Below are positions 1 to 32,569 of a stretch of 64,000 nt of DNA, one piece after another. Position numbers and translations under genes: made by a program. The stretch lies in the NCBI GenBank assembly GCA_010909165.1, contig MU008225.1, positions 62,001 through 126,000 on the forward strand, given 5' to 3'. The DNA is from Anthoceros angustus. Its lineage: Eukaryota > Plantae > Anthocerotophyta. Numbering within the stretch: the first letter of the stretch is position 1; each line of letters opens with the position of its first letter. The notes below the pieces were generated by a model. The model was not told the origin of the DNA, searched no databases, and saw only the letters and a program-made list of their open reading frames with translations.

Positions 1-1399
1 CCCATGAATCGCCATTTCTTCTCTGCCGTTTTGCTCAAGCTTCTCATGGGATGCATCTCCTTCCTCGCCCTCTGGCGCACCTACCTCCCTAGGGCCTTCT
101 CCTCCTCGGCCCCATGGCGCCTGGCTTGACCTCTAGGCCAGCCACGCCTTGTTCCATCTAGCTTGTTCACGGTGGATGTTGGTCTTTGTGGCCACAACCG
201 CCTTCAACTCTCACAAAACTAGCTTCTCCACCGTCGTCTGCGGGCATCCCATGGGTCGTGGACTGTGCATCATCGCTGGTACACCATCTCCCGACCTTCT
301 AGACTCATGTCTGGCCCTAGATCGCTCTAGCGATCTCCTTACATTGCTGCGGTTTTCGCAGCAATTTCCACAATCGACCGTGAATTGGTCGGCTCTCCTT
401 CTTGCAATTCCCTGCAAGCATATCTTGAGGTGTGATTTCTCCACAATCCTCCTTCATACACATCACCATAGAGCCATCCTCGCTCCTCCTGGCTCTAGCG
501 CAGACTCCTCGGCACACCATTTTTTGTGCCACTTCTCCTTCCTCCAAATTGTGATTTCTTGCAATTTCTCCATCATCCTTGCCACCATCGTGGCCTCCCT
601 AACTCGCTTACCAGCAGACCCAGGGCGTCGTTGCCACGGCATGCTCAACCTCATTCACAAAACCGTTTCCTCCTGTTTGCCAATGCAAGTTTTTCGGCTT
701 GCGGTCTGGCAGCTCCCTTCACCAAGTTCCGATTTCCTCCCCTTCTTGTTGGCCTAGCCTCATGTCCAGGTCAGATCGCGCTCCCATGGCGACCTCCTCG
801 CCTTGCTGCACTTCCATGGTGAATTTTGGTGATTGCCCACAGATCGCCAACTCTCCCCGGTTTACGCTCAAACTTTTCATGAAGCGCATCTCCTCCTTCG
901 CCCTCTGGCGTGTCCACCTCCCTAGGGCCTTCTCCTCCTCGCCTCGCACGGCTTATGACCTCGCCAAGTGGGGCGCCTTTTCTTTTTTGACCGGCGCTCC
1001 CATGTCCGTTTTGCTTCTTTCTTTTGCCAACGGCTGGCCTCCACTTGCAGCCTCCTGACTGCTCACCCTTGAGGAGCATTCCAGCCTCCTCCTCGCCCCT
1101 TGGCGCCCTTTTATCCTCTCGGTTTGGATTGTCTCGCCTTTCACACGCTCCTTCTTGCTCATTTGACCTCCTGGCAGCAAGGCTTGCTGATCAATCCTTA
1201 GGCCGTCTACAACATGCTCACGTCCTCCCCTTCACCCAGGCCGTGGCAACCAACTCCTCGTCGAAATCGGTCATCGTGGCCTCAAGTCGCTCTCCGGTTT
1301 CGATCGAAAAATGAAACTGCATTCTCATGCTCTTCCTGCACCTTCTTAAACTCTACCATCTCCTCTACACTTAGAAATCTTCACCACCTTACCACATTC

Positions 1400-3095
1400 T
1401 AGCTCTAATTTTCTATGACACATGGATCTACATGTGTTCCCTCTAACTCCTTCCTGCTTTCCCCAACTTTTATCAAGAAAGGTCATACCATAGGCCTTGC
1501 TTTTGAAGGCTACATCCTTGGTGGTGGTACTCTCTCCTCTATGTAATCATACAAAGACTCCTCCTCTTCCTTGAGTCCTCAACGGACCAGCGTGTGATGT
1601 GCATAGCTTAAGCCACAAAACCGGTTCAAAGATACAGCTCTCAAATCATCCCAATCCAATGGTGATGCCCATACGTGACTATACCCTGCTGGCCATGACC
1701 TCAAGTACTCTAGGAAAATTTGGAGACAATCCACCGAGACTTCCAAATTCGCATGAGTCACATGTTCAAAGTTTGCACAAAAGCCTCAGCATCTTCACCT
1801 CGTTGCTTCTCCCCAAATCTCCCATATTGCTGGCTGTGGGGTGGTGACTTCCACCACCTCCACTTCCTCCACTCATGGTTGAGGCGTCCACAAAGTGGGC
1901 ACACCTCCCAGACTCCAATATCCGGCGTAAACAAATGCCTGCAAGCGGGATGTACTATACAGACTTGGGCACACAAGCGCCTCAGTCCTCTAACAAGCAA
2001 GGTTGAAAGGGCAGCAAGATGGGTAATTCGATCAAGACCTTGCGAAGCTCACCATTAGATCTGACCCCAACTTCTCCGCCAAATCTCACCCTCTTGCCTT
2101 CCTCCTCCACGACGACCAACTCGAGCTAGAAGAGCTCAACAATCCAAAAAGTCCTCCTCTTGCAAGAGCGGAAGATGTACCTTGAAATTATTAACGGCTC
2201 GGATTCTTGACCCTCACCCTTGATCAACTCCTCGGCAACAACCTCCTTCCTCTCTGTCCGTGAGCACAACCTCCTCTTGCTCTTAGACAACTACCTCTTC
2301 TTCCTCAACGGAACCCTTGAAGATGTTAGCACATGTAGCTTCCTCAAGAGCTCTCTCCTCCGCTTCTTCCTTTGCACATCAGCAACTAAGCTTTCTTCAC
2401 GCACATGATTTCTCCATTCAGTTCACAAATCCCTTGCAGACAAAGGCGGGGTGATCTCCTCTCAACTCCTACACGAAAATTACTTCCTCCCTCCCGACTA
2501 GACTTGCAAGCACGCTCACCCCTCAACACACAACTATCCAAAACAGCAAATCCCTCCTACTCTGTTCCACTCATGTTGCTTGGTCCAGATATGAGCTAGG
2601 CGAACTCACACTCCCTTCCTCTCCAGTAAATTCTCCAACCAAAGTTCTGCGAGAAAGGGTGTCTGCATAAAAGATTGGGCGGTTGTGGGATGGTGTCTCC
2701 CCTAGGTGTGCGTCCCAAGGCGTGAGCTGAGCGTGATTCTATCAAGGCGCTCCAAGATCTTGACCATGCCTGAAATTCTCCACCGCTCACCCCTCCCTTC
2801 TTCACTTCTGTTGGAGTTGAGCTGGATCCACCACTCAAGGTCCAGCGTTGAGAAGGCCCGTGCTGGTAGCTGAACTTGAATCGTGCTCGAAGCGGTGCTT
2901 CCTCCTCGCTTCACACACCAACTCCTCTTCAACCACCTCCTTTGTTTGCCGGTGATTTTGGCGTCCCTTCTCCGAGCGTTGCTGGATCACTTGGCTCCCC
3001 TTGTAGGCAAGGGCAAAACGGCCTCCTCCTCAAGCGCCCTTAGCTCTTCCTCCTCCACAGCGCGTGCAACCACTGCGTTTTCCTCCCTCCATTGA
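1400..3095 (-). pseudogene. gag: Retrotransposon gag-like ORF, frameshifted (copy 1)
   Basis: Fragments QYGRFGEKQRGEDAEAFVQT / DWDDLRAVSLNRFCGLSYAHHTLVR resemble the retrotransposon gag domain. It starts ~340 bp downstream of the PBS. Confidence 0.7.
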
Positions 3096-3432
3096 TTTCT
3101 TCTTGCAGCTCTTAGATCTCTTGCGAACAGGTGGGGTGACCTCCTATGGTTTTCTCCTCTCCCTCCTCCTCTGCTAGACATCTGCAAGCATCCTCATAGC
3201 CTCCAAAACACGGTTGTTAAAGAAAAATCAGCCAACTCCCATCGCCATTCTTGCTGCAGGAACACAAAAATCACACCATTCAGGAGGCGTGGAGCTCCTC
3301 CTTCACAACGCACAAGTTCCAGGACGTGTAGGCTTCTTCCTAGACCCCCGCTCCACCTCCTTACAAGATCTTCTCAGCTCATACTGCAAGCTAGCAACGA
3401 AAATCTCAAAATTTCAACTGTTCAGCAACAAG

Positions 3433-3450
3433 TCCCCGGCAACGGCGCCA
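3433..3450 (-). promoter_or_regulatory. Primer-binding site complementary to the 3' end of tRNA-Asp
   Basis: Plus strand TCCCCGGCAACGGCGCCA, i.e. minus TGGCGCCGTTGCCGGGGA, 4 nt after the LTR end ...CCCACA. This is the PBS type typical of Athila-lineage elements. Confidence 0.9.
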
Positions 3451-4309
3451 AAAATGTGGGAGGAAAACCCCGGGGCACTCCCGAGATTCCCCCTCTAGCG
3501 GCCACACTTATCCCACTGTCGAGACGTTGGGTTTCGTCCCATGAGACTTGGGAGGTCAATCTTGAGAAATCCGTCACTACTGCAGCTACACACTACCTCA
3601 GCCTTCTAAACAAGCAAGGCGCCCTCTCACGCTCCCTCTACAGCAGCCCGCATGCGCCGTAAACTCACCAAACCTCAACCTACAAGCGACACCACAATTG
3701 TTCGTCTTAACGAAGGTGTCTATCACGGGCGCCTGAGGACTGACCCACACCGCAACCGTCCCTACTCCTAAGACACTCTTCTCCACAGGGCGCCCTCTTA
3801 CTTGCAGTTGGGATTCGTCCCTTAGGCTCGCACTGTGGCCTTAGTTTTCCTACACTCTAATCCTCCTCACAACTCTCTCAATCAACAACGCCCTCTTCTT
3901 CTCTACTCATCTACCCTTCCTTCCTCCACAATCTCCTACTCTAACACCAATTGCTGGCTCATTAATTCCAACTCGCCCTTACGGCACATCAGTCCGTCAG
4001 GAAATTAACGAGTTCTTCCTTGGGCGGTTGCTATGTGGTTTGCACGGACGAGAACCTCCAGTCTTTCCTGCAGTCTACCCTCAAGCCGAGAGTTCCTTGA
4101 GCATCGCCACACACTCAAAGCAAAACAATTCACACAACCATTCACAAGGGGAGCCTAGCGGCGCAGAAAGAGCAAGCCCTCCACCCGACCGCCGTTCTCC
4201 CTCTCTACGGACCTGCGTTGGCTTGCGGCGGCACGAAATTCTGCACAAAGTGAAGGACTCGGGAGGATGGGAGCGCAAGACCGATAATTTTACTTCACAA
4301 GCTCCCTCC

Positions 4310-4316
4310 TTTTATA
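4310..4316 (-). promoter_or_regulatory. TATA box, likely the genomic-RNA promoter of the LTR
   Basis: Minus strand CCCTATAAAAGGAGGGAG ~860 bp before the LTR end; conserved in LTR copy 2. Confidence 0.6.
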
Positions 4317-4875
4317 GGGAGGTCCTCACATACAGCCTCCCACAGCGCCCTCCGCACGCCTTACTCCTTATTTTAGTGTATCCTATCGGACTTTAAGTTC
4401 GACATCCAAGCATCTTGGGTAAAATTCTATTCTAGCAAATTCACCTATGTGAGCCTTAATGGCTCCTCCAACATTCCTATCTAGCTAGTCAACACACTCT
4501 CTTTGGTGACAAGCATTAATGCCTCCTCCTCTAAAGAAAAGTCTTCCCAAGTGGCATCTTGCCCCATGTCTTCAAGCTAATTTAAGGACTTCTTATGAAT
4601 CCCTTCCTTATCTTGATGCCTATCTTGAGTTCCTTCCTCCAATAAAATAGCCGGGCTCTCTTAGCCTGGCTCATCCTCGCTTCTCCTCTTCCTCTCACTT
4701 GTGGAGCAAGTGAGCTCCTTCTCCTGCACCCATGTTAGGAGGTTGGTCTTCTCCTTGTGATTCTTGCTCCATTCTGCAAGATCAACCCCTCTTCCTTCTT
4801 TCTGCAAGGGCCAAGGTACTCGCCTCCCTTGCCGTCAAATCCATGCTAGCACCTTTGAATCCGCTTCTTCCGGCC

Positions 4876-4955
4876 CTCCTACCATGGTAGGACCTTCTCC
4901 TACCACGGTGAGTCCCTCCGGTAGGAACTCCTCCTACCATGGTAGGAGTTCCTAC
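4876..4955. repeat. Cluster of ~4 CCTACC(A/G)(C/T)GGTAGG palindromes
   Basis: For example ctcctaccatggtaggag and cctaccatggtagg, read directly. Confidence 0.85.
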
Positions 4956-5011
4956 TGGTCGTTTCTTCCTTACCCCTTCACAGGTGATTCTCTCCACACA
5001 GCTTCTCCGCT

Positions 5012-7532
5012 TCACTCGCTTCTCCAGTGCGAAGTTTCTTCACCCTGCTTGGGACACTCTCCAAGTCTAAGGCTTCGGTTGGACTTGCATGAGGGCCTCC
5101 CTATCATCGTCATGAGGTCCCAACATCCTCCTCCTCGCAACAACTCGTTAGTGGCCTTGAGCACCTTGTTGTGAAGATGGGCTGCAAATCGTTGTTGTGC
5201 CATCTCCAATTCTTAATCCTCAAGCCATACTCCATGCTCACACTTGCTTTTGTAAGCATCTCGCTCCAAGGCCAGCTCACCGGTCTTGACATGGAGAGCC
5301 ACATTCTCCTTTCAGCAAGTCGCAACAACTCGTTAGTGGCCTTGAGCACCTTGTTGTGAAGATGGGGAAATCGTTGTTGTGCCATCTCCAATTCTTTGTA
5401 ATCCTCAAGCCATACTCCATGCTCACACTTGCTTTTGTAAGCATCTCGCTCCAAGGCCAGCTCACGGTCTTGACATGGAGCCACATTCTCCGTCCTCTCA
5501 TTCTGCGGTTGGATCAATCTCTCTTGTAGGGCATAATCAGCCCGAAATCTCCTCCTCACCGCCAACATATGCTGCACCACCGCCTCATGACGGCCTTTCT
5601 CCTTTGCCATTTCTTCCTCCAACTCCCCTATCCTCCTAGGGAGTTGTGCATTCTCCGTTCTTTGGACTTCTCGTTCCATTTCCAATCTTTGGACAAAATG
5701 TGTCCGTTCTTCCAGCTCTTCTTCCTTCAATTCCAGCCTCCGTGGTTTCTCCCAGCTCCTTTTCCATGTCACTAATCTTCACACTGTGGCTATGACCCGC
5801 TCATGCGCCTACTTGCCTTTGTCTTTGCCCTCATTTCTGCGAGATTGCTCGTCTTGACCTTTCCTCCATTAGCAGCACTTGCTTGTCTTGCCTTCTTTTC
5901 CCATGCGCACCATGTGAGCAAGTTGCTCCACCTTCTCCTCTCGAGCTGCCAATTGCTTGGTAAGAGCCTTGTTCTCCGAATATGATTGTTTGCCTCTGCC
6001 TTGTTCTCAAGACTCTTTTCCAAGTGCTCCACTTGAGCTTCCATCCTCATAACATCCTCCTGCCGCTGGGTTTCCGCTCGCCTACCCGCAATTTCCCTTG
6101 CTTGGTAGGTCCTTGTCTTTTCCGCCTCCGTCTTCAAGAATTCAACTCTCCTCTTGGCGGCTCCTATGTCTACCTTGCTGAACATCTCCCCTATGCGCAG
6201 CATCTCCTCCAACATGTCCAAGTCTCCTTTCTTACCTCCGGGAGACTCAAGGCCTTTGCCTTGCTCATGGGATCTTACATCCCTTGCTTCCCTATGATGA
6301 GCTCCCGCTCATCACCGGGCAACTCCTCCCACCGTGACTCCATCCGCTCGCCCACCTAGCAGGGCGGTTGCCTTCTTATCTCCTCTTGGGAGCTTCCAAA
6401 CCGTGACTTCCTTTTCCCTCCTACCGTGGTAGGAGGTGCTCCTAGTGGACTACTTCCCTACCGTGGTAGGACTAATGCCACCGTAGGCCTTGTCATGAGA
6501 GGACGAAGGGGTCCCAAACCACTGTGAACACCTCCCACCCTCGGGGATTCGCCATGGTAGGATCTATCCTACCTTCCATCTCCGCATCCTCCGCGGTCCA
6601 AACTTCAAATCCCCTACAACTTCTCCTTGCAAGTCCTCCGCATCCTCCGGCCTATCTTTGGAGGATTCCTTCCGGCAATAATGTGGTGCCGGCACCTCCT
6701 TTAGCGCAAAGCACCAAGCACTCCTGTCCCTCTCAGGCTGTAAGTACACAATGTTAAAGGGATGCTTGGAATCATCCAACTCCTTACTTGTGAGTAGCCC
6801 TCTACTTCCCACAAATGCACTAGATAAGTGCTAAGATAGCATGGCCTATCTTCATCCAAGCGTTGGGTTTGACAACTTTTCCGGTGGTAGGTGTATGCTT
6901 CATACATGATGAGCCCCAATCCGGCTTCGCTCCTTGAGTGATCTTCCATAGAAAATGGAGGAAGGTAGTGCTGAAATATGACACCCTTGGATTGCTCACC
7001 AAGCCCAAAACAATTCTTGTGAACAATCTCCACTTGGGCTCCAAGATTTGGTCCGCCAACCGTTCTTGGACTTAGCCTTCATGCCCTTGCATAAGTGTAA
7101 GGGCTCCTTGGAAGATCCGCCGTTGATGCACGCTTGCCTCAATCGTTCCTTCCATCAACGTGATTCCGCTATCCTCGCTATCCGCCCGCCATAAGCGTAT
7201 GCTCCTTACTCCAACACCGTGGATCCGTCCGTGCGTTCTATCCGGTGGGCGGCCAATTCCTCCGGCTGCAAATTAGCAAAACACTCTCTATCAATTCAAG
7301 GTTGGTGTAAGACCAATGTCGCCCATACACCCACTCTAGCTGAATATTCTCCTCTGCTGCCCAAGGTCGAAGTCGAAAGGTCTCTAGAGGATAGCTGGCC
7401 TGCATAGCACGTAAATAAGGGCATGTCAAATTTCCACCCTCGGTCGATCCTCCGCCTTAGACCTCTTGCCTCCTGCGCCACCTCCTTGGTGGACGCTCCT
7501 TCCTTAGCTACTACCTCCTTGCCCTTGGTCAT
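5012..7532 (-). CDS. LTR-internal accessory ORF (frameshifted here): N-terminal globular domain plus long C-terminal coiled coil; function unknown
   Basis: Collinear minus-strand fragments MTKGKEVVAKEG..., KNGWRTDQILEPKWRLFTRIVLGLVSNPR, KPDWG, YLSTYLVHLWEVEG, then E/K/R-rich helical ORFs 5790-6221 and 5110-5772. The same fragments recur at 15956-19430 (-), and the N-terminal part at 28830-29780 (+). Confidence 0.65.
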
Positions 7533-8352
7533 GGTAGGCTTGGTCCTAGCCTCCTTGGTTAGTACTTGCATTGTGTGTGTGATGCCTCCTTCCGCACTCT
7601 TCTATCCTTGCCTTGCTCTCCTCCTGATTTGCTCTTGCTCACAGCTCAAAGGTCCTTGCCCTTGCTCTCCTCCTCAGTCCTTACACCTTGGCGTCCTCAA
7701 ACCCCGATTGCAAGAGAAAGCTCACCAAAATTCCCCGGACTCTTACAGCCACGAATTTAGGAGCCCTTCCTGTGGTTTCCTAGCAATCTTGCCACGCTCC
7801 ACCCTCCTAGGCACCCTCACGAGCTTGGCAAGTGTTGGGTTCGCCCCAACCTTCTTCTCCTTCTCTTCTTCCTCTTTCTCTTTTCTTCACCTTGCGCTGG
7901 ACTTCCACCTCCTCGCTGAGCTCACGCCCTTCTTCTTCACCTTGCCACAAGCCACCTGGCCTTGCACCTAGCCTTCCCAAGCACCAACTGCTCATGATTT
8001 GAAAAATTCTCCAAAGTTCCTCAGTCCTTACACTTGTGTCGCCATTTGGGAGCCTTTCCTTCACGGTTTCCTAGCAATCTTGCCACGCTCCACCCTCCTA
8101 GGCACCCTCACGAGCTTGGCAAGTGTTGGGTTCGCCCCAACCTTCTTCTCCCTTCTCTTCTTCTCCTTCTTCCTCTTTCCTCCTCTTGGCCCCTGCTTTT
8201 CTCCTCCTCCGTTGCCCAACTTGCCTCCTTCTCCTCCTCAACACATGGCGTGTACGGGCGCGGCTGTGGGGCCTTGGGCAGCTTGAGGTGTGGCTTCCTT
8301 CCCGTGAGGCCGCCTCCTCAAGTTTCGAGTTGTGGCCTCGAGCACGCACCAC

Positions 8353-8359
8353 TTTTATA
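8353..8359 (-). promoter_or_regulatory. Second TATA box, upstream of the LTR-internal ORF
   Basis: Minus strand GACTTATAAAAGTG following an AT-rich block; conserved at ~20435 (-) and ~28280 (+). Confidence 0.55.
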
Positions 8360-8624
8360 AGTCACCCAAGGGTTAGAAAAGTAACTACCATTCTATCCTG
8401 CCCTTGGATGTGTGCCACGTGGCCCTTTCTCACCGTTGATGTTAGTTTCCTAATTCCTTATACTAAAATACCATTTTCCCTATTTTCTAATTTCTAATTA
8501 CTGAAAATTAGCCTCTAATTTCTTAATTACCTATTTTGGCCTATTTATCTAGTCCACTAAAAGACTCTATATATAGCAAGCCTATCCTGCCTAAAACATA
8601 AGCTACTTCCTTAGCAACCTATCT

Positions 8625-8865
8625 CCCACTGGTAGGACATCCTCCTACCATGGTGGCGTTTTCCCTTTCTCCTACCACGGTAGGAGTTTCTCCTACGGTG
8701 GTAGGATACCTTCCTACCTCCTACCATGGTAGGACATCCTCCTACCACGGTAGGTGATCAAAACACTAGCGGTCATTCTCCCACTGGTAGGATCTCTCCT
8801 ACCCTCGTCTACCATGGTAGGAGTTTCTCCTACGGTGGTAGGACACCTCCTACCACTCATGTAGG
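8625..8865. repeat. Array of ~10 CCTACC(A/G)(C/T)GGTAGG palindromes near the LTR 5' end
   Basis: Repeated cctaccatggtagg / cctaccacggtagg / cctacggtggtagg; the same array occurs at ~20700-20945 and ~27780-28015. Confidence 0.9.
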
Positions 8866-9065
8866 TTACCTTTTCTCCTCACCAGGTCGTTTTGACCCGT
8901 TTCTTTTCCTGCATATCCTCTTGCCTTCCGACATGGTCCTACAACTCCGCTCAAAAGGAGCAAAAATTTCCTTGCATGTCTTCACCAAACCATTTCTAGC
9001 AAAAGAGTGTGGGCTGTTTCAAACGAACTCATTTAAGCTTGTTGCCCAAACTTTTGCGTTCCACA

Positions 9066-9080
9066 TACTCCCCTCCTCAC
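9066..9080 (-). promoter_or_regulatory. Polypurine tract
   Basis: Minus strand GTGAGGAGGGGAGTA immediately before TGTGGAACG. Confidence 0.8.
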
Positions 9081-9109
9081 TGTTTGCGTCCTCAAACCAG
9101 ATAATTTCG

Positions 9110-9800
9110 GTGAAGGTACTTCTTAACCTTCCACCCATTCACTCTAGTTGGCAAATCCCCATCCGGCTGCGTGGTTGCGGATCCATTCTCATACGCCACC
9201 ACCTCATAAGGTCCCATCCATCTCAACCTAAGCTTCCCTGGAAGTCCATATAACGGCTATCATATAGAAGAACCAAATCCCCGCCATGATAGCTTCTTGC
9301 TTCCTCAACTTCCCATCATGCCTATCCTTTCTAAGCTCCCGACCACCGAGTTTCTTCTAAAGCATCTTCCCTCGTTCCTCATGCTCTATGAAAGACTCTA
9401 GTCTAACCCGACTATCCTCTCTGATCATCGCTCATCCTCCATGATTCTATAGGTAGGTACTTCAAATTCAGCATCACGGAGACATGCCATATGTTAAGTA
9501 ATAAGAGGTCTTCTTGGTTGTCACCTTCTCCGCTGTCTAAGCCCATAATGCTCTGCATCTAAGATCTTCTTCACCGTGATTTACTGAATAATGGCCTCCA
9601 ACCTTCCGCATGCAAAGCTTCTTTAAGAAGAAAGCTTCCTTCCCTTCAAACAACGTCGGATCTTCTCATCCAAACCAAGCTTGTATAAGACCCCATCTCT
9701 TAGACAATAAGGCACAGCTCTAGGGAGAAAGACAGCACGCCCTTCCCTAGACAAACTATCCAACATGATTCCGTGCTCCAAGAAATTTCATACCTCACCA
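9110..9800 (-). pseudogene. Ty3/gypsy integrase remnant: zinc-finger HH part fused to the C-terminal GPY region, catalytic core missing
   Basis: Manual translation across frameshifts gives GVLYKLGLDEKIRRCL...ALHAEGGGHYS...KKILDA, directly followed by ALWA*TAEKVTTKKTSYYLTYG...EFEVPTYRI...GDLVLLYDSR...FPGKLRLRWMGPYEV...RVNGWKVKKY. Confidence 0.75.
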
Positions 9801-11689
9801 TTCAATAACATGGACATGGGAGTCCTTCACGTTCTAATCTCCTCCTTCCACGCATACCACGTCGCCTCCTGCTAGCTCGCCCACCAGCAGCCCCGTTGTT
9901 CCATCCACAAATCCAGTTTCTCCCGCTTTGTCCATGCAAGTTTTGAGCTGCACCCCGTTTGCATGCTCCTCCTCCAACAACGTTCGATTTCTTCCATTCC
10001 TGCTGGTCTAGCCTCGTGTCCAGGTCCAGCTCGTGCTCCCATGGCGACCTCCTCGCCTGTTTGCACCCCCATGGCCACCTCATGAGTGATTTCCCATGAA
10101 TCTGCCATTTTCTTCTCCTGCCGTTTTTGCTCAAGCTTCTCATGGATGCATCTCCTTCCTCGCCCTCTGGCGCACCTACCTCCCTAGGGCCTTCTCCTCC
10201 TCGCCCTCTGGCCCCATGGCGCCTGGCGACCTCGCCAAGTGGGGCGCCTTTTCTGCTTGAAACCACGCTCCCATATCCGTGCTTCTTTCTTTGCCAACGG
10301 CTGGCCTCCACTTGCAGCCCTCTGACTGCTCACCCTTGAGGAGCATTCCAGCCTCCTCCTCGCGCCCATACTGGCGCCCTTTTATCCTCTCGGTTCCAGT
10401 TGTCTGCGCGCCTTTCCCGCTAACGCTCCCTTCTTGCTCATTTGACCTCTCTGCTGGCAGCAAGGCTTGCTGATCAATCCTTAGGCCGTCTACAACATGC
10501 TCACGTCCTCCCCTTCAACTCGGCTCACAAAACTAGCTTCTCACGCCTCGATCTGCGCAGCATCGTCGTGGACACATGCATCATCGCGTACACCATCTCC
10601 CGACCTTCTAGACTCATGTCTAGCCCTAGATCGCTCTCAGCGATCTCCTTACATTCTCTTTCCACGGCAACAATTTCGCAATCGACCGTGAATTGGTCGC
10701 CTCCTTCTTGCAATTCCACTGCAAGCATATCTTGAGGTGTGATTTCTCCACAATCCTCCTTCATACACATCACCATAGAGCCATCCTCGCTCCTGGGCTC
10801 TAGCGCACCGCAGCTCCTCGACACCATTTTGTGTGCTTCTCCTTCCTCCAAATCGCATTTCTCCATCATCCTTGCCACCATCGTGGCCTCCTGCTAGCTC
10901 GCTTGCAGACCCGGCGTCGTTGCCACATGACATGCTCAACCTCATTCACAAAACCGTTTTCCCTGTTTTGCCAATCCGCAAGTTTTCCACTTGCGGTCGT
11001 TCAAGCTCCCTTCACCAAGTTCGATTTCCTCCCTTCTTGTTGGCCTAGCCTCATGTCAGGTCAGATCGCGCTCCCATGGCGACCTCCTCTTGCACCCCAT
11101 GGCCACCTCATGAGTGATTTCCCATGAATCGCCATTTCTTCTCCTCCTGCGGTTTCGCTCAAACTTTTCATGAGCGCATCTCCTCCTTCGCCCTCGTGTC
11201 CACCTCCCTAGGGCCTTCTCCTCTCGGCCTCCATGGCGACCTCGCCAAGTGGGGCGCCTTCTCGCTCAAAAAGCTGCTCTCATGTAGTTTTGCTTCTTTC
11301 TTTGCCATCGTGATGGCCTCCACCGCAGCCTCCTGCTCACCCTTGAGGCATTCCAGCCTCCTCCTCCTCGCGCCCATACTGGCGCCCTTTTATCCCTCGG
11401 TTCCAGTTGTCTGTGCAACTTTTCACCTGACGCTCCCTTCTTGCTCATTTGACCTCTGCTGGCAGCAAGGCTTGCTGATCAATCCTTAGGCCGTCTACAA
11501 CATGCTCACGTCCTCCCCTTCACCCGCCGTGGCAACCAACTCCTCGTCGAAAATCGGTCATCTGGCCTCAAGTCGCTCTCCGGTTTCGAAAAATGAAACT
11601 GCATTCTCATGCTCTTCCTGCACCTTCTTAAACTCTACCATCTCCTCTACACTTAGAAATCTTCACCACCTTACCACATTCTAGCTCTA

Positions 11690-13412
11690 ATTTTCTATGG
11701 CACATGGATCTACATGTGTTCCTCTAACTCCTTCCTACTGTTTCCCAACTTTATCAAGAAAGGTCATACCATAGGCCTTGCTTTTGCGGAAGCTACATCC
11801 TTGGTGGCCGTGGTGGTACTCTCTCCTCTATGTAATCATACAAAGACTCCCTCCTCTTCCTTCGCAGAGTCCTCAACCGGACCAACGTGTGATGTGCATA
11901 GCTTAAGCCACAAAACCGGTTCAAAGATACAGCTCTCAAATCATCCCAATCCAACGGTGATGCAGCCCCATACGTGTGACTATACCACTGCTGGGCATGA
12001 CCTCGAAGTACTCTAGGAAAATTTCGGAGACAATCCACGATTGAGGCTTCCAAATTCGCATGAGTCATATGTTCAAAAGTTTGCACAAAAGCCTCAGCAT
12101 CTTCACCTTGTTTCTTCTCCCCAAATCTCCCATATTGCTGGCGGCTGTGGGGTGACTGACTTCCACCACCTCCACTTCCTCCACTCATGGTTGAGGGCGT
12201 CCACAAAACTGTGGGCACACCTCCCAAGACTCCCCTGTCCGAACAAATGTTGCTGCAAGCGGATGTACTATACAGACTTGGGCACACAAGCGCCTCGATC
12301 CTCTTAACAAGCAAGGTTGAAAGGGCAGCAAGATGGGCGTAATTGATCAAGACCTTGAAAGCTCACCATTAGATCTACCCCAACTTCTCCGCCAAATCTC
12401 ACCCTCTTGCCTTCCTCCTCTTGACGACCAACTCGAGCTAGAAGAGCTCAACAATCCACGCCAAAAAGTCCTCCTCTTGCAAGAGCGGAAGATGTACCTT
12501 GAAATTAGGCTCGGATTCTTGACCCTCACCCTTGATCGGCAACTCCTCGGCAACAACCTCCTTCCTCTCGCTGTCCGTGAGCACAACCTCCTCTTGCTCT
12601 TAGACAACTACCTCTTCTTCCTCAACGGAACCCTTGAAGATGTTAGCACATGTAGCTTCCTCAAGAGCTCTCTCCTCCTTCTTCCTTTGCATCAGCAACT
12701 AAGCTTTCTTCACACATGATTTCTCCATTCAGTTCACAAATCCCTTGCAGACAAAGGCGGGGTGATCTCCTCTCAACTCCTACGAAAATTACTTCCTCCC
12801 TCCCCGACTAGACTTCCGCACGCCCACACCTCAACACACAACTATCCAAAACAGCAAATCCCTCCTACTCCTGTTCCACTCATGTTGCTTGGTCCGGATG
12901 AGCTAGGCGAACTCACACTCCCTTCCTCTCCTGCAGTAAATTCTCCAACCAAAGTTCTCTGCAGAAGGGTGTCTGCAAAAGATTGGGGACGGTTGTGGGA
13001 TGGTGTCTCCCTAGGTGTGCGTCCCAAGATGAGCTGAGCGGTGATTCTATCAAGGCGCTCAAGATCTTGAGACCACACGAAATTCCCCGCTCACCCTCCT
13101 TCACTTCTGCTTGGAGTTGAGCTAGATCCACCACTCAAGGTCCAGCGTTGAGAAGGCCCAGTGCTGGTAGCTGAACTTGAATCGTGCTCCAGAAACGGTG
13201 CTTCCTCCTCGCTTTCCTCTTCACATACCAACTCCTCTTCAACCACCTCCTTTGTTTCGCTGTCGGTGATTTCGTCCCTTCTCGAGCGTTTTCTGCTGGA
13301 TCACTTGGCTCCCCCTTGTAGGCAAGGGACAAAACGGCCTCCTCCTCAAGCGCCCTTAGCTCTTCCTCCTCCCGGAGCCGCAACCACCGCTGCGTTTTCC
13401 TCCCTCCATTGA
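11690..13412 (-). pseudogene. gag: Retrotransposon gag-like ORF, frameshifted (copy 2)
   Basis: ORF 11793-12350: EDAEAFVQTFEH...VLRGHAQQWYS...WDDLRAVSLNRF...RESLYDYIEE. Confidence 0.75.
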
Positions 13413-13728
13413 TTTCTTCTTGCAGCTCTTAGATCTCTTGCGAACAGTGGGGTGACCTCCTATGGTTTTCTCCTCTCCCTCCCTCTGCTAGACATCGCAA
13501 GCATCCTCATAGCCTCCAAAACACGGTTGTTAAAGAAAAATCAGCCAACATGCGCCATTCTTGCTGAACACAAAATCACACCATTGGAGGCGTGAGCTCC
13601 TCCTTCACAACGCAGGGTTCCAGGACGTGTAGGCTTCTTCCTAGACCCCGCTCCACCTCCTTACAAGATCTTCTCAGCTCATCTGCAAGCTAGCAACGAA
13701 AATCTCAAAATTTCAATTGTCACCACAA

Positions 13729-13740
13729 GTCCCGGCGCCA
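13729..13740 (-). promoter_or_regulatory. PBS copy 2 (tRNA-Asp type, with a deletion)
   Basis: gtcccggcgcca followed by aaaaTGTGGGAGG, as at 3433-3460. Confidence 0.7.
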
Positions 13741-13744
13741 AAAA

Positions 13745-16700
13745 TGTGGGAGGAAAACCCGGGGCACTCCGAGATTCCCCTCTAGCGGCCACACTTATCC
13801 CATGTCGTCGTTGGGTTTCGTCCCATGAGACTTGGGAACGGTGATCTTGAGAAATCCGTCACTACTGCAGCTACACACTACCTCAGCCTTCTAAACAAGC
13901 AAGGCGCCCTCTCACGCTCCTCTACAGCAGCCGCCGTCGCTTTGCCGTAAACTCACCAAACCTCAACCTACAGCGACACCACACAATTGCGTGTTACGTC
14001 TTAACAAGGTGTCATCACGGGGACCCCGACCCACACCGCAACCGTCCCTACTCCTAAGACACTCTTCTCCACAGGGAGCGCCCTCTTACTTGCAGTTGGG
14101 ATTCGTCCCTTAGGCTCTGCACAGTGGCCTTAGTTTTCCTACACTCTAATCCTCCTCACAACTCTCTCAATCAACAACGCCCTCTTCTTCTCTACTCATC
14201 TACCCTTCCTTCCTCCACAATCTCCTACTCTAACACCAATTTGGCTCATTAATTCCAACTCGCCCTTACGGCACAGCCTGGGTCCGTCAAATTAACGAGT
14301 TCTTCCTTGGGCCGGTTGCTATGTGGTTTGTACCAGACAGCGAGAACCTCCAGGGAGTCTTTCCCTGCAGTCTACCCTCAAGCCGAGAGTTCCTTGAGCA
14401 TCGCCACACACTCAAAGCAAAACAATTCACACAGCAACCATTCACAAGGGGAGCAGCTAGCAGGGGCGCCTGCAAAGAGCAAGCCCTCCACCCAGCACTC
14501 CGACCGCCGCGTTCTCCCTCTCTACCAGACACTGCGTTGGCTTGCAGCCGGCACGAAATTCCTGCACAAAGTGAAGGACTCAGGAGGATGGGAGCGCAAG
14601 ACACGATAATTTTACTTCACAAGCTCCCTCCTTTTATAGGGAGGTCCTCACATACAGCCTCCCCCTGGCGCGCCCTCACAGCCTCCCACAGGCGCCCTCC
14701 GCACGCCTACTCCTAAGACACTCTTCTCCACAGGTGAGCGCCTACTTGCAGTTGGGATTCGTCCCTTAGGCTCACTGTGGCCTCCGCTTTTCCTACACTC
14801 TAATCCTCCTCACAACTCTCTCAATCAACAACGCCCTCTTCTTCTACTCATCTACCCTTCCTTCCTCCACAATCTCCTACTCTAACACCAATTGCTGGCT
14901 CATTAATTCCAACTCGCCCTTACGGCACTGCAGTCCGTCAGGAAATTAACGAGTTCTTCCTTGGGCGGTGTGGTTTGCACGCAGCGAGAACCTCCGAGTC
15001 TTCCAGTCTACCCTCAAGCCGAGAGTTCCTTGAGCATCGCCACACACTCAAAGCAAAACAATTCACAACCATTCACAAGGGGAGCGGTGGGGCACTGCAA
15101 GAGCAAGCCCTCCACCCGACTCCGACCGCGTTCTCCTCTCTACCAGACCTGCGTTGGCTTGCGGCACGAAATTCTGCACAAAGTGAAGGACTCGGGAGGA
15201 TGGGAGCGCAAGACACGATAATTTTACTTCACAAGCTCCCTCCTTTTATAGGGAGGTCCTCACATACCTGCCCACAGGCGCCCTCCGGCACCGCCTTACT
15301 CCTTATTTTAGTGTATCCTATTGTCGACTTTAAGTTCGACATCCAAGCATCTTGGGTAAAATTCTATTCTAGCAAATTCACCTATGTGAGCCTTAATGGC
15401 TCTGTCAACATTCCTATCTAGCTAGTCAACACACTCTCTGACAAGCATTAATGTCCTCCTCTAAAGAAAAGTCTTCCCAAGTGGCATCTTGCCCCATGTC
15501 TTCAAGCTAATTTAAGGACTTCTTATGAATCCCTTCCTTATCTTGATGCCTATCTTGAGTTCCTTCCTCCAATAAAATAGCCGGGCTCTCTTAGCCTTGG
15601 CTCATCCTCGACTTCTCCTCTTCCTCTCACTTGTGGAGCAAGTGAGCTCCTTGCTCCTGCACCCATGTTAGGAGGTTGGTCTTCTCCTTGTGATTCTTGC
15701 TCCATTCTGCAAGATCAACCCCCTCTTCCTTCTTTCCTGCAAGGGCCAAGGTACTCGCCTCCCTTGCCGTCAAATCCATGCTAGCAGCCTTTGAATCCGC
15801 CGCTTCTTCCGGCCCTCCTACCATGGTAGGACCTTCTCCTACCGGTAGGAGTCCCTCTCGGTAGGAACTCCTCCTACCACGGTAGGAGTTCCACTGGGTC
15901 GTTTCTTCTTCCTTACCCCTTCACAGGGTGATTCTCTCCCCTGAAGCTTCCCGCTTCACTTGCTTCTCCAGTGCGAAGTTTCTCCACCCTGCTTGGGACA
16001 CTCTCCAAGTCTAAGGCTTCGGTTGGACTTGCATGAGGGCCTCCCTATCATCGTCATGAGGTCCCAACATCCTCCTTTCAGCAAGTCGCAACAACTCGTT
16101 AGTGGCCTTGAGCACCTTGTTGTGAAGATGGGGCGCAAATCGTTGTTGTGCCATCTCCAATTCTTCGTAATCCTCAAGCCATACTCCATGCTCACACTTG
16201 CTTTTGTAAGCATCTCGCTCAAGGCCAGCTCACCGGTCTTGACATGGAGAGCCACATTCTCCGTCCTCTCATTCTGCTTGGCGGATCAATCTCTCTTGTA
16301 GGGCATAATCAGCCGAAATCTCTCCCTCACCGCCAACATATGCTGCACCACCGCCTCATGGCCTTTCTCCTTTGCCATTTCTTCCTCCAACTCCCCTATC
16401 CTCCTAGGGAGTTGTGCATTCTCCGTTCTTTGGACTTCTCGTTCCATTTCCAATCTTTGGACAAAATGTGTCCGTTCTTCCAGCTCTTCTTCCTTCAATT
16501 CCAGCCTCGTGGATTTCTCCCAGCTCCTTTTCCATGTCACTAATCTTCACTTGTGGCTATGACCCGCTCATGTGCGCCTACTTGCCTTTGTCTTTGCCCT
16601 CATTTCTTTGCAGATTGCTCTCTCTTGTAGGGCATAATCAGCCGAAATCTCTCCCTCACCGCCAACATCTTTACCGCCTCTGACGGCCTTTCTCCTTTGC

Positions 16701-19700
16701 CATTTCTTCCTCCAACTCCCTATCCTCCTAGGGAGTTGTGCATTCTCCGTTCTTTGGACTTCTCGTTCCATTTCCAATCTTTGGACAAAATGTGTCCGTT
16801 CTTCCAGCTCTTCTTCCTTCAATTCCAGCCTCGTGGATTTCTCCCAGCTCCTTTTCCATGTCACTAATCACGCTGTGTGTGACCCGCTCATGTGCGCCTA
16901 CTTGCCTTTGTCTTTGCCCTCATTTCTTTGCAGATTGCTCTCGTCTTGACCTTTCCTCCATTAGCAGCACTTGCTTGTCTTGCCTTCTTTTCCCATGCGC
17001 ACCATGTGAGCAAGTTGCTCCACCTTCTCCTCTCGAGCTGCCAATTGCTTGGTAAGAGCCTTGTTCTCCGAATATGATTGTTTGCCTCTAGCCTTGTTTC
17101 AAGACTCTTTTCCAAGTGCTCCACTTGAGCTTCCATCCTCATAACATCCTCCACTGGGTTTCCGCTCGCCTACCCGCAATTTCCCTTGCTTGGTAGGTCC
17201 TTGTCTTCTCCGCCTCCGTCTTCAAGAATTCAACTCTCCTCTTGGCGGCTCCTATCTACCTTTGAACATCTCCCCTATGCATCCTCCAACATGTCTAAGT
17301 CTCCTTTCTTACCTCAGGAGACTCAAGGCCTTTGCCTTGCTCATGGGATCTTACATCCCTTGCTTCCCTATGATGAGCTCCCGCTCATCACTTGGTGGGC
17401 AACTCCTCCCACCGTGACTCCATCCGCTCGCCCACCTAGCAGGGCCGGTTGCCTTCTTATCTCCTCTTGGGAGCTTCCAAACCGTGACTTCCTTTTCCCT
17501 CCTACCGTGGTAGGAGGTGCTCCACCAGGACTACTTCCTACCGTGGTAGGACTAATTCACCGTAGGTCTTGTCATGAGAGGACGAAGGGGTCCCAAACCC
17601 GTGGGAACACCTCCCACCCTCGCAGCGGGATTCGCCATGGTAGGATCTATCCTACCTTCCATCTCCGCATCCTCCGGTCCAAACTTCAAATCCCCTACAA
17701 CTTCTCCTTGCAAGTCCTCCTGCATCCTCCGCCCCTATCTTTCGGAGGATTCCTTCCGGCAATAATGTCGGTGGTGCTGCGGCACCTCCTTTAGCGCAAA
17801 GCACCAAGCACTCCTGTCCCTCTCACGGTGTAAGTACACAATGTTAAAGGGATGCTTGGAATCATCCAACTCCTTACTTGTGAGTAGCCCTCTACTTCCC
17901 ACAAATGCACTAGATAAGTGCTAAGATAGCACGGCCTTGACTCCTTCATCGTTGGGTTTCGCTCGCCTACCAATTTCCCTTGCTTGGTAGGTCCTTGTCT
18001 TCTCCCTCCGTCTTCAAGAATTCAACTCTCCTCTTGGCGGCTCCCTGTCTACCTTCTGAACATCTCCCCTATGCGCGCATCTCCTCCAACATGTCCAAGT
18101 CTCCTTTCTTACCTCCGGAGACTCAAGGCCTTTGCCTTGCTCATGGGATCTTACATCCCTTGCTTCCCTATGATGAGCTCCCGCTCATCACTTGGTGGGC
18201 AACTCCTCCCACCGTGACTCCATCCTCGCCCACCTAGCAGGGCCGGTTGCCTTCTTATCTCCCGGCTTGGGAGCTTCCAAACCGTGACTTCCTTTTCCCT
18301 CCTACCGTGGTAGGAGGTGCTCCCAGGACTACTACCGTGGTAGGACTAATTCTGCCCGTGGGCCTTGTCATGAGAGGGAAGGGGTCCCAAACCGTGGGAA
18401 CACCTCCCACCCCCCCGAGATTCCTGCCATGGTAGGATCTATCCTACCTTCCATCTCCGCATCCTCCGGTCCAAACTTCAAATCCCCTACAACTTCTCCT
18501 TGCAAGTCCTCCTGCATCCTCGGCCTATCTTTGGAGGATTCCTTCCGGCAATAATGTCCGGTGGTGCTGGCACCTCAAGCTACAAAGCACCAAGCACTCC
18601 TGTCCCTCTGGTCAGTACACAATGTTAAAGGGATGCTTGGAATCATCCAACTCCTTACTTGTGAGTAGCCCTCTACTTCCCACAAATGCACTAGATAAGT
18701 GCTAAGATAGCCATGGTGGGGCATCTTCATCCGGCGTTGGGTTTTGACAACTTCTCCGGTGGTAGGTGTATGCTTCATACATGATGAGCCCCAATCCGGC
18801 TTCGCTCCTTGAGTGATCTTCCATAGAAAATGGAGGAAGGTAGTGCTGAAATATGACACCCTTGGATTGCTCACCAAGCCCAAAACAATTCTTGTGAACA
18901 ATCTCCACTTGGGCTCCAAGATTTGGTCCGTCCGCCAACCGTTCTTGGACTTAGCCTTCATGCCCCTTGCATAAGTGTAAGGGCTCCCTTGGGAAGATCC
19001 GCCGTTGATGCACGCTTGCCTCCTCGTTCCTTCCATCAACGTGATTCCGCTATCCTCGCTATCCGCCGCCATATACAGCGTATGCTCCTTACTCCAACAC
19101 CGTGGATCCGTCCGTGCGTTCTATCCGGTAAGGCGGCCAATTCCTCTCCGTCACGTAAATTAGCAAAACACTCCTCTATCAATTCAAGGTTGGTGTAAGA
19201 CCAATGCCCATACACCCACTCTAATGAATATTCTCCTCTGCCCAAGGTCGAAAGTCGAAAGGTCTCTAGAGGATAGCTGGCTGCATAGCACGTAAATAAG
19301 GCATGTCAAATTTCCACCCTCGGTCTGATCCTCGCCTTAGACCTCTTGCGCTCCTGCGCCACCTCCTTGGTGGACGCTCCTTCCTTAGCTACTACCTCCT
19401 TGCCCTTGGTCATGGTAGGCTTGGTCATGGCCTCCTTGGTTAGTACTTGCGAAATTGAAGAAAAGTGATGCCTCTCAGCAATTCCTGCGGCTCCGACTTC
19501 TATCCTTGCAAGCGTTTCTCCTCCTCGGTGATTTGCTCTTGCTCACAGCTCAAAGGTCCTTGCCCTTGCTCTCCTCCTGCAGTCCTTACACCTTGGTCTA
19601 AATTGCAAGAGAAAGCTCACCAAAATTCCCCGGACTCTCTACAGCAAAGGAGCCCTTCCTTAGCTACTACCTCCTTGCCCTTGCTCTCCTCCTAGGCACC

Positions 19701-21146
19701 CTCATGAGCTTGATTTGCTCTTCTCCCTCTCTTCTTCCTCAATTCCTCCTTCTTTCTCTTGGGCGCTGGACTTCCACCTCCTGCAGACGCCCTTCTTCTT
19801 CACCTTGCCACAAGCCACCTGGCCTTGCACCTAGCCTTCAAGCACCAAGCAAAGATTTGACCTCCTTCCTTAGCTACTACCTCCTTGCCCTTGGCTTGGT
19901 CATGGCCTCCTTGGTTAGTGCACACGATTGAAGAAAAGTGATGCCTCTCACACATTCCTGCAGACCGACTTCTATCCTTGCAAACGTTTCTCCTCCTCGA
20001 TTTGCTCTTGCTCACAGCTCAAAGGTCCTTGCCCTTGCTCTCCTCCTGCAGTCCTTACACCTTGGCGTCCCCGAAACCCGATTTCTCCTGAGAAAGCTCA
20101 CCAAAATTCCCCGGACTCTTACACACACAGCAATTTAGGAGCCCTTCCTTCACGGTTTCCTAGCAATCTTGCCACGCCCACCCTCCTACCCTCACGAGCT
20201 TGGCAAGTGTTGGGTTGCCCCAACCTTCTTCTTCTTCCTCTTCTTCCTCAATTCCTCCTTCTTCCTCTCTTGGCGTCCTGCTGCCTTTTCTCCTCCGTTG
20301 CCCAACTTGCCTCCTCTCAGCTCGTGCGGTACGGGCGTTGCTGTATGGGGGCCTTAAGCTTGAGGTGTGGCGCCTTCTGCCGTGGAGGCCTCCTCAAGTT
20401 TCGAGTTGTGGCCTCCTGCAGCACTGCAGCCACTTTTATAAGTCACCCAAGGGTTAGAAAAGTAACTACCATTCTATCCTGCCCTTGGATGTGTGCCACG
20501 TGGCCCCTTTCTCACCATTGATGTTAGTTTCCTAATTCCTTATACTAAAATACCATTTCCCTATTTTCTAATTTCTAATTACTGAAAATTAGCCTCTAAT
20601 TTCTTAATTACCTATTTTGGCCTATTTATCTAGTCCACTAAAAGACTCTATATAGCAAGCCTATCCTGCCTAAAACATAAGCTACTTTCCTTAGCAACCT
20701 ATCTCCCACCGTGGTAGGACATCCTCCTACCATGGTAGGCGTTTTCCCTTTCTCCTACCACGGTAGGAGTTACTCCCACGGTAGGATACCTTCCTACCCT
20801 CTCCTACCATGGTAGGAGCTATTCCTACAGGTAGGTGATCAAAACACTAGCAGGGTTTCTCCTGGTGGTAGGATCTCTCCTACCCTCGTCTACCATGGTA
20901 GGAGTTTCTCCTACGGTAGGACACCTCCTACCACTCATGTAGGTTACCTTTTCTCCTCACCAGAGGTCGTTTTGACCCGTTTCTTTTCCTGCATATCCTC
21001 TTTGCCTTCCCGACATGGTCCTACAACTCCCGCTCAAAAGGAGCAAAAATTTCCTTGCATGTCTTCACCAAACCATTTCTAGCAAAGAGTGTGGGCTGTT
21101 TCAAAAGCGAACTCATTTAAGCTTGTTGCCCAAACTTTATGCTCCA
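13745..21146 (-). repeat. Giant LTR copy 2 (~7.4 kb including several local duplications)
   Basis: Collinear with 3455-9065, with extra duplicated blocks at ~14700-15290, 16620-16930, 17955-18710 and 19660-20110. Confidence 0.8.
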
Positions 21147-29783: not shown

Positions 29784-29791
29784 CCGAGGGC

Positions 29792-31940: not shown

Positions 31941-32190
31941 AGTTCGCGAAATTTAGCCGTTTTAGGCATTTTCGCACTGTTCCGCACGGTATAGATTGTA
32001 GGTATTTCTGGCATTTTAGGCATTGTTGGTTTAGGGTCGACATTTTCGGCTTTTTCTGTTTGTTGGGTGGGGTGGGTTGGGCTGGTTGGTGCGGGTTGGG
32101 GCGGGTTGACCATTGGTAGAAAGTATTTGGCAGGAGCTGCGCGTGGATAGCTTGGTGCTTTTTTGTGTGAGTGTGACCGAGAGTCCTGGA

Positions 32191-32310
32191 CGAGTGTGTG
32201 AACAGGGTTAACGCTTCCCTTTTCCCGAGTGTGTGAACAGGGTTAACGCTTCCCTTTTCCCGAGTGTGTGAACAGGGATAACGCTTCCCTTCTCCCGAAT
32301 GTGTGAACAG
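32191..32310. repeat. 35-bp tandem repeat, ~3.5 copies
   Basis: cgagtgtgtgaacagggttaacgcttcccttttcc repeated head to tail. Confidence 0.9.
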
Positions 32311-32565: not shown

Positions 32566-32569
32566 AATA

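What the first reader, a model, noticed from the sequence alone, without database searches (positions are those of the whole stretch)
3455..9065. Retrotransposon with ~5.6 kb LTRs that carry a whole gene cassette inside the LTR
Seen: the segment has a PPT on one side, a tRNA-Asp PBS on the other, and TGTGG...CCACA ends. Its 5' end abuts unrelated DNA at two other places (27578, ~21146), so it behaves as an LTR rather than internal sequence. Inside are TATA (8353), an ~2.5 kb ORF, then a second TATA (4310). Established: Athila/Tat/Ogre extra ORFs lie between the LTRs, whereas U3-encoded genes are known from retroviruses (MMTV sag; HIV nef overlaps U3). Inference: every insertion carries two copies of the gene and even solo LTRs would remain expression units. 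This is the best candidate here for an undescribed system.
Basis: partly seen in the sequence, partly recalled or inferred. Interest (0 to 1): 0.85.

Follow-up and report, generated by a model that had tools for sequence, protein, structure and literature searches.

The report
Gene inside giant plant retrotransposon LTR
A plant jumping gene has unusually long (5.6 kb) terminal repeats that likely carry their own protein-coding gene and clusters of a palindromic DNA word, so each new copy would duplicate this extra gene, a layout known from a mouse retrovirus but not found in the plant papers searched.

Summary
The 5.6-kb segment behaves as the LTR of a young, non-autonomous Athila/Tat-type gypsy element in an LTR-internal-LTR-internal array. 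Its 5' end meets unrelated DNA at two other places, and the integrase tail ends 27 nt before it, at the purine tract, leaving no room for an internal extra ORF. Both TATA boxes are there. No intact 2.5-kb ORF exists in this error-ridden assembly (longest open frame 222 codons). A codon model still scores 8250-4950 as coding on the element strand (z 5.8, gag region 5.7, flanks about 0 or below), mostly from a coiled-coil half; copy C gives no signal. Copies differ by 16 substitutions against 186 indels, so the breaks look like sequencing errors. No homolog was found. New here: a 16-bp palindrome occurs 26 times, only inside the LTR copies, clustered upstream of both TATA boxes. Best reading: an Athila-like extra gene moved into U3 by an upstream shift of the purine tract, perhaps a VANC-like regulator of its own LTR (untested). 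TSDs, solo LTRs, expression and dN/dS could not be tested. The scan noted LTR-borne genes before, in fungal-type gypsy elements of other genomes.

The parts
3455..9065 (-). LTR copy A, 5611 nt, TGTGG...CCACA; serves as 3' LTR of the upstream internal region and 5' LTR of the next
9066..9080 (-). polypurine tract abutting the LTR start
3433..3450 (-). primer binding site, 4 nt after the LTR end (tRNA-Asp type; assignment recalled)
   Evidence: position as in PMC1142308
8670..8843 (.). cluster of the 16-bp palindrome TCCTAC-N4-GTAGGA (5 copies at <=1 mismatch, 6 at <=2), 310-485 nt upstream of the first TATA
8353..8359 (-). first TATA box, present in copies A, B and C; putative promoter of the U3 gene
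4950..8250 (-). likely protein-coding region inside U3, broken here by many 1-2 nt indels; ends not defined; basic low-complexity start, globular-looking core (about 7550-6560), linker, long coiled coil (about 6250-5100)
6419..6471 (.). two palindrome copies in the linker of the coding region
4877..4947 (.). two palindrome copies 560-630 nt upstream of the second TATA
4310..4316 (-). second TATA box; putative promoter of the genomic RNA, followed by about 830 nt of R/U5
9066..13744 (-). internal region, 4679 nt: gag, repeated segments and integrase remnants; no protease, RT or RNase H recognised
9092..9256 (-). integrase C-terminal SH3-like tail; its stop codon ends at 9092, 27 nt from the LTR start
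   Evidence: Atlas first hits 0.95; SH3_Tf2-1 cluster 0.93, 189 of 256 features shared
11793..12362 (-). gag fragment
   Evidence: Retrotrans_gag E 1.4e-4, 22.5 bits, below the 24.1 cut-off
13745..21146 (-). LTR copy B, about 7.4 kb with internal duplications; 5' end abuts an older relative in opposite orientation
1..3454 (-). second internal region, running off the window
27578..29783 (+). LTR copy C, first 2.2 kb only; 5' end abuts unrelated DNA read by eye as a copia-type pol
21150..21800 (+). older relative D, 72% identical to the R/U5 part only; ends CCACA against unrelated DNA

Best explanation
This is a gag-carrying gypsy retrotransposon with no recognisable reverse transcriptase, whose 5.6-kb terminal repeat behaves as one LTR and likely contains an extra protein gene, predicted to make a coiled-coil nuclear protein that would bind the palindromes in its own LTR and keep it transcribed. 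Shown: the repeat's ends and junctions; integrase tail, then purine tract, then repeat; two TATA boxes; palindromes confined to the repeat. From established retro-element biology: plus-strand synthesis starts at the purine tract, so everything 3' of it is copied into both LTRs; an element lacking RT must borrow it from an autonomous partner. Inferred origin: Athila/Tat elements often carry an extra ORF between pol and the 3' LTR. Adopting a new purine tract and end right behind integrase would turn that whole zone into U3. Inferred function, about 0.3 on its own: an oligomeric DNA-binding trans-activator or anti-silencing factor working like VANC on arrays of a short motif. The confidence given is for the anatomy (real LTR with a real gene inside).
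For: Boundary: unrelated flanks at 27578 and about 21146, inverted termini, PBS after both A and B. Integrase SH3-like tail stops 27 nt before the repeat. Summed contig depth in DNA run X1 averages 1570 over nine LTR bins (4447-8892) against 530 for the two internal copies added together (14 bins), ratio 3.0; the tool warns that depth is no copy number, so this is weak. One 4405-nt contig of run X3 bridges about 4280-8884 in one piece. Gene: codon model trained on three host frames gives z 5.8 on the element strand against 1.2 on the other for 8250-4950, z 3.0 in copy B, and 5.7 and 3.7 for the two gag-bearing internal regions; non-coding LTR flanks give -2.2 to 0.1 in A. Breaks look like errors: 16 isolated substitutions (15 transitions) against 186 indels, 132 of them 1-2 nt, with a similar spectrum in an assembly duplicate (21 of 22 indels 1-2 nt); several window indels are contradicted by contigs of all three runs. 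The 222-codon frame folds as one long helix, pLDDT 82-98 over residues 11-80. Palindrome: 26 copies in 15.2 kb of LTR, 0 in the other 48.8 kb, shuffle mean 0.01. Precedent for motif arrays bound by a TE's own protein: VANC21 (PMC5735166).
Against: No intact ORF in any copy. The coding signal comes mostly from the coiled-coil half (z 5.5); the core scores 2.3 in A, 0.9 in B and shows nothing in C, and one stretch chosen as non-coding control scored 3.0. The test is weak at this error rate: the integrase remnant itself scored 0.4. No homolog or family was found by any search. Purine tracts before TGT are common here, including one before a TGTGG at 5485. At the 5' junction the DNA run showed no unrelated flanks, and depth stayed high through the purine tract. 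Nothing tests DNA binding. Four of the nine palindromes in A lie inside or at the end of the coding region, unlike VANC targets, which are mainly non-coding.
Confidence: 0.58

Rival explanations
1. The LTR and its gene are real, but the protein is not a regulator of its own LTR. It is a structural or targeting accessory (particle chaperone, chromatin tether for integration), and the palindromes are bound by a host transcription factor.
For: Athila-domain and ATLANTYS accessory proteins are coiled-coil proteins with other predicted roles (PMC13547354). LTRs often carry host factor sites upstream of the start (same paper). No DNA-binding fold was recognised.
Against: The palindrome is absent from 48.8 kb of other DNA in the window and sits in dense clusters, as VANC targets do. 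This rival shares the anatomy of the best explanation and differs only in function.
Confidence: 0.28
2. The 5.6-kb LTR is real but holds no working gene. The coding signal is a relic of a captured or engulfed coiled-coil segment inside an expanded non-coding U3, as in the long LTRs of Ogre or Diaspora.
For: No intact frame, no homolog, and weak or absent codon signal in the core. Long LTRs without a reported ORF are known: Diaspora 2524 bp, Ogre over 5000 bp.
Against: Strand-specific coding signal over 3.3 kb equal to that of gag; error-type indel spectrum in near-identical copies; a TATA box kept in all three copies just upstream.
Confidence: 0.2
3. [quoted passage not shown]
For: The assembly is noisy, with internal duplications in B and an artefactual duplicate beside the N gap. 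Relative D matches only the last 650 nt and itself starts TGTGG. A purine run precedes a TGTGG at 5485. Depth is high on the purine tract.
Against: Two separate places have unrelated DNA at the 9065-equivalent base, one of them in opposite orientation and 6 kb from the array. The PPT sits right there, behind the integrase stop. D has no TATA box and no matching flanks, so it fits a truncated LTR better. Depth does not step down across U3 to the internal level.
Confidence: 0.17

Closest known systems
Athila/Tat (OTA) gypsy elements with extra ORFs (PMC6317226; PMC7264820)
   Same: tRNA-Asp-type PBS a few nt after the LTR (72% of Athila, 37% of TatII), very long LTRs up to about 5 kb, a sense extra ORF 3' of pol, coiled-coil/SMC-like extra proteins
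   Different: The extra gene lies 3' of the purine tract, inside the repeat; the review places such ORFs in the internal region. No match to Athila ORF-1, plant mobile domain or Transposase_28 in Pfam scans of the broken frames.
Diaspora of soybean (PMC1142308)
   Same: Athila lineage, tRNA-Asp PBS, pol stop close to the PPT (128 bp), unusually long LTR (2524 bp), no ORF between pol and PPT
   Different: No long ORF was reported in its other frames; it is autonomous; the LTR here is twice as long and scores as coding.
MMTV sag (PMC12789967)
   Same: A whole ORF inside U3, with further promoters in U3 upstream of the main one
   Different: Sag is a membrane superantigen of an animal retrovirus; no sequence relation is claimed, and the protein here looks like a soluble coiled-coil protein several times longer.
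VANC anti-silencing proteins of VANDAL transposons (PMC5735166)
   Same: Proposed mode of action only: a TE-encoded accessory protein and dense arrays of a short element-specific motif near promoters
   Different: VANC belongs to dicot Mutator-like DNA transposons and binds a non-palindromic 9-mer; no homology or binding was shown here.
Retand TRP28 and Retrosat2 ORF0 (PMC11963269; PMC3485330)
   Same: Lineage-specific accessory ORFs of unknown function, some predicted to bind DNA or with Smc-like domains; Retrosat2 has LTRs over 3.2 kb
   Different: TRP28 ORFs are antisense in the pol-3'LTR zone with LTRs of 315-1194 bp; ORF0 lies upstream of gag-pol.

Membership tests
LTR of an LTR retrotransposon | TG...CA ends with short inverted repeat | tested here: met
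   TGTGG...CCACA
LTR of an LTR retrotransposon | PPT directly before and PBS directly after the repeat | tested here: met
   purine tracts are common on this strand
LTR of an LTR retrotransposon | Same end abuts unrelated DNA at independent insertions | tested here: met
   2 of 2 other 5' ends in the window; the genome-wide check with contigs was inconclusive
LTR of an LTR retrotransposon | 4-6 bp target-site duplication around a full element or solo LTR | not testable with these tools
   No copy has both flanks in the window and no genome is held
Ty3/gypsy superfamily | gag, with integrase last in pol and ending in an SH3-like tail | tested here: met
   Retrotrans_gag just under cut-off; SH3_Tf2-1 look-alike at the 3' end; Pfam itself gave no hit on the 54-aa tail
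Athila clade | RT-RH-INT phylogeny, no additional RNase H | not testable with these tools
   RT and RH were not recognised in this element and no autonomous partner was found
Athila clade | tRNA-Asp PBS | tested here: inconclusive
   PBS present; tRNA identity recalled, no tRNA gene in the window; also common in TatII
Athila clade | Extra ORF between pol and the PPT | tested here: not met
   Integrase stop lies 27 nt from the LTR start
Tat clade | Additional RNase H domain | not testable with these tools
   That part of pol is missing from this element
Protein-coding gene in U3 | Continuous open frame | tested here: inconclusive
   Longest frame 222 codons; breaks have an error-type spectrum
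Protein-coding gene in U3 | Strand-specific codon structure | tested here: met
   z 5.8 in A and 3.0 in B, none in the part held by C
Protein-coding gene in U3 | Purifying selection | tested here: inconclusive
   Only 16 substitutions; 6, 3 and 6 at codon positions 1, 2 and 3 among the 15 confidently placed
VANC / plant mobile domain / Athila ORF-1 / Transposase_28 proteins | Sequence or fold match to the family | tested here: inconclusive
   No Pfam hit to these families at E up to 1; single-sequence model of the core too poor to search, mean pLDDT 46.8
VANC-like anti-silencing system | Protein binds the element's motif array and lifts silencing | not testable with these tools
   Motif arrays are present; binding needs an experiment

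The most novel reading that the evidence does not exclude
The LTR is a self-contained regulatory cassette: it encodes a new family of DNA-binding proteins together with that protein's own palindromic binding arrays, so every insertion and every solo LTR is a self-activating, anti-silencing unit. This would be a retrotransposon counterpart of VANC that survives the recombination which normally kills LTR elements.
Probability: 0.22. Interest if true: 0.82.

Novelty: new variant of a known kind. Interest (0 to 1): 0.55.

Why it matters
LTRs are treated as non-coding, and recombination to solo LTRs is the host's main way of removing these elements. A gene inside U3 would be doubled at each insertion and would survive that removal, so the host could not delete it this way. 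If the protein binds the LTR palindromes, it gives a compact, testable case of sequence-specific counter-silencing by a plant retrotransposon and bears on the open question of what Athila/Tat extra ORFs do. It also warns that TE pipelines which mask LTRs or cap their length will miss such genes.

Tried and rejected
No genome is held for this window, so copies, solo LTRs and TSDs could not be collected. Homolog searches for U3 frames found nothing: 319 and 688 candidates, none at E<=0.001, longer proteins only. The HMMER search of 1.84 billion representatives gave 3 hits, all unrelated tandem-repeat proteins, which I rejected. The ESM Atlas best score was 0.81 with low recognition; PDB sequences gave 0; Pfam gave only weak coiled-coil-type or chance hits at E 0.06-0.9. 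Contig collections gave no relatives; 116 metagenome loci from a 16-nt pattern had 0 blastn, tblastx or tblastn hits to the element. Both single-sequence folds were unsuitable for a fold search, so none was run. Lag autocorrelation was too weak to be useful: z 2.0 for the U3 region, 2.1-2.2 for host genes. The bacterial promoter scan is not applicable. Expression: no RNA holder is listed. Run X3 is only guessed to be RNA; its contigs cover about 4280-9368 and not gag or U5. If it were RNA, cover upstream of the first TATA would point to read-through rather than a start there, but contigs cannot show starts, so I draw nothing from it. The host was not identified; the nearest TRAPPC11 relatives are 56% and 32-42% identical. 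That the core resembles the helical accessory domains of other plant elements is recalled and supported by no call.

Full report
Setting. The window is plant DNA: it holds a PPR gene with an E motif, a P450 and a TRAPPC11-like gene. It is a noisy long-read assembly, and repeat copies differ by 3-11% gap letters. No genome is held. The best public DNA holder has 98 million letters of contigs. A small-genome, gene-dense non-seed plant is my inference; I did not identify the species.

Layout. On the minus strand the first 21 kb read: LTR B (about 21146-13745), internal region (13744-9066), LTR A (9065-3455), second internal region (3454-1). A third copy C (27578-29783, plus strand) holds the first 2.2 kb of the repeat, and an older relative D (21150-21800) matches the last 650 nt at 72%. 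The internal region has a gag fragment (Retrotrans_gag, 22.5 bits against a cut-off of 24.1). I recognised no protease, RT or RNase H in its translations, so the element is non-autonomous as assembled. The last frame before the repeat (9256-9092) looks like the SH3-type integrase tail (Atlas first hits 0.95; SH3_Tf2-1 cluster 0.93), although Pfam and PDB gave no hit on these 54 residues.

Is the 5.6 kb the LTR? For: it starts TGTGG and ends CCACA; a purine tract precedes it; a PBS follows both A and B; and both other 5' ends in the window meet unrelated DNA. The integrase stop lies 27 nt from the start of the repeat, so no extra ORF fits between pol and the purine tract. In DNA run X1 the summed contig depth over nine LTR bins averages 1570, against 530 for both internal copies added (14 bins; bins that straddle a boundary or are shared with copy B were left out), a ratio of 3.0. 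The tool warns that such depth is no copy number. One contig of run X3 bridges about 4280-8884 in one piece; it lacks the 182-nt duplication and a 290-nt segment of copy A, and suggests a true length near 5.5 kb (inference). Against: 25 purine-tract-plus-TGT sites occur in 21.2 kb of this strand, one before a TGTGG at 5485. Laying contigs on the 5' junction showed no unrelated flanks and high depth through the purine tract; junction contigs may be too short to be laid, so this is inconclusive. No TSD could be checked. I put the LTR reading at about 0.8.

Is there a gene in it? Not as an intact frame: the longest are 222, 172 and 125 codons. A codon model trained on three host frames, allowing frame switches and compared with shuffles, gives z 5.8 for 8250-4950 on the element strand and 1.2 on the other. 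Copy B gives 3.0, the two gag-bearing internal regions 5.7 and 3.7, and the LTR flanks of A -2.2 to 0.1. Results against: most of the signal is in the coiled-coil half (z 5.5); the core scores 2.3 in A, 0.9 in B and nothing in C; 1 of 3 presumed non-coding controls scored 3.0; the integrase remnant scored 0.4, so the test lacks power on short pieces. In that region the copies differ by 16 isolated substitutions (15 transitions) and 186 indels, 132 of them 1-2 nt; an assembly duplicate shows the same kind of spectrum. Contigs of all three runs contradict several window indels. The copies are therefore young, the breaks are most likely sequencing errors, and dN/dS cannot be measured. The 222-codon frame folds as one long confident helix followed by low-confidence parts; the core piece gave no usable model. 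No homolog was found in any search, but the queries were partly off-frame fragments, so this is weak. I put a real gene at about 0.75.

A de novo word search found the palindrome TCCTAC-N4-GTAGGA: 26 copies at up to one mismatch, 9 in A, 11 in B, 6 in C, none in the other 48.8 kb, shuffle mean 0.01 and maximum 1 in 200. In A, five lie 310-485 nt upstream of the first TATA, two in the linker of the coding region and two 560-630 nt upstream of the second TATA. Both TATA boxes are kept in the copies that cover them.

How it most likely works. Minus-strand synthesis would be primed at the PBS and plus-strand synthesis at the purine tract behind integrase, so all 5.6 kb are regenerated at both ends; enzymes must come from an autonomous partner (established biology). 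The simplest origin is an upstream shift of the purine tract and end in an Athila/Tat-type ancestor, which turned the usual pol-to-LTR extra-ORF zone into U3 (inference). The second TATA would drive the genomic RNA. The gene could be read from the first TATA in any LTR copy, or by read-through into the 3' LTR as for MMTV sag. For function I commit to a coiled-coil DNA-binding regulator acting on the palindrome arrays, by analogy with VANC21, which binds dense arrays of a short motif in its own element (PMC5735166). This step has no direct support (about 0.3). Rivals are a structural or targeting role with host factors on the palindromes, a relic in a non-coding U3, and a shorter true LTR.

Comparison with what is known. 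tRNA-Asp priming is typical of Athila (72%) and TatII (37%) (PMC6317226 supplement), and OTA elements have LTRs up to about 5 kb. The review of additional ORFs places them in the internal region (PMC7264820). Diaspora shares the pol-PPT-long LTR layout without a reported extra ORF (PMC1142308). MMTV U3 holds the whole sag ORF (PMC12789967). It works like an Athila/Tat extra-ORF element, but clade membership cannot be tested without RT, and the usual position of the extra ORF is not met. Nine paper searches showed no listing that describes a plant LTR carrying a whole gene; the library lacks most subscription papers, and I did not see Steinbauerova et al. 2011. The per-element file of PMC6317226 was too large to read and may bear on this, since TatII has near-equal shares of 5' and 3' forward extra ORFs. 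What I read: PMC3485330, PMC13468544, PMC13547354, PMC12859917, PMC11963269 and PMC12789967 as passages; PMC6317226 as passages plus two supplementary files; PMC10508981 and PMC7264820 as parts 1-2 of 3; PMC5735166 as abstract and section 8; PMC1142308 as passages and section 9. The scan's own unchecked notes report LTR-borne genes in fungal-type gypsy elements of other genomes; look-ups for this genome, this sequence and a plant Athila/Tat case returned nothing. Those notes lowered my sense of uniqueness and are not evidence.

Verdict. This is a new variant of a known kind: a plant gypsy element with a probable accessory gene inside a very long LTR and LTR-specific palindrome arrays. Interest 0.55, held down by the missing TSD, intact frame, homolog and expression evidence.

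Noticed in passing
window 1-21146: Tandem array LTR-internal-LTR-internal sharing the middle LTR; copy B has several internal duplications. It could be a real tandem element or read-tiling error.
   Followed up: partly
window 21150-21800: Older relative of the R/U5 part that happens to start TGTGG and end CCACA; either a truncated LTR interrupted by copy B or a short-LTR sister family.
   Followed up: partly
window 9092-9800: The integrase head and tail appear fused, with the catalytic middle missing (motifs recalled; only the tail was confirmed). A contig of run X3 leaves the window sequence at 9368, hinting at other internal variants.
   Followed up: partly
window 9902-11522: About 615-nt segment repeated within the internal region after gag, 79-81% alike.
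   Followed up: no
window 29792-31935: 940-nt duplicate on both sides of a 240-N gap, a scaffolding artefact; used as error control.
   Followed up: yes
window 25400-27577: Sequence read by eye as a copia-type pol on the minus strand, interrupted by LTR copy C; its other half was not found in 29700-37000.
   Followed up: partly
window 37219-58798: Gene-dense host region: ribosomal S30, DUF7869, PPR protein with E motif, cytochrome P450, a GTPase and a TRAPPC11-like gene in two long frames.
   Followed up: no
PMC6317226 supplementary file MOESM5: TatII elements (37% tRNA-Asp PBS) have forward extra ORFs 5' of pol in 23% and 3' in 26%, near-equal shares that an LTR-borne ORF would produce. The per-element file was too large to read.
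   Followed up: no
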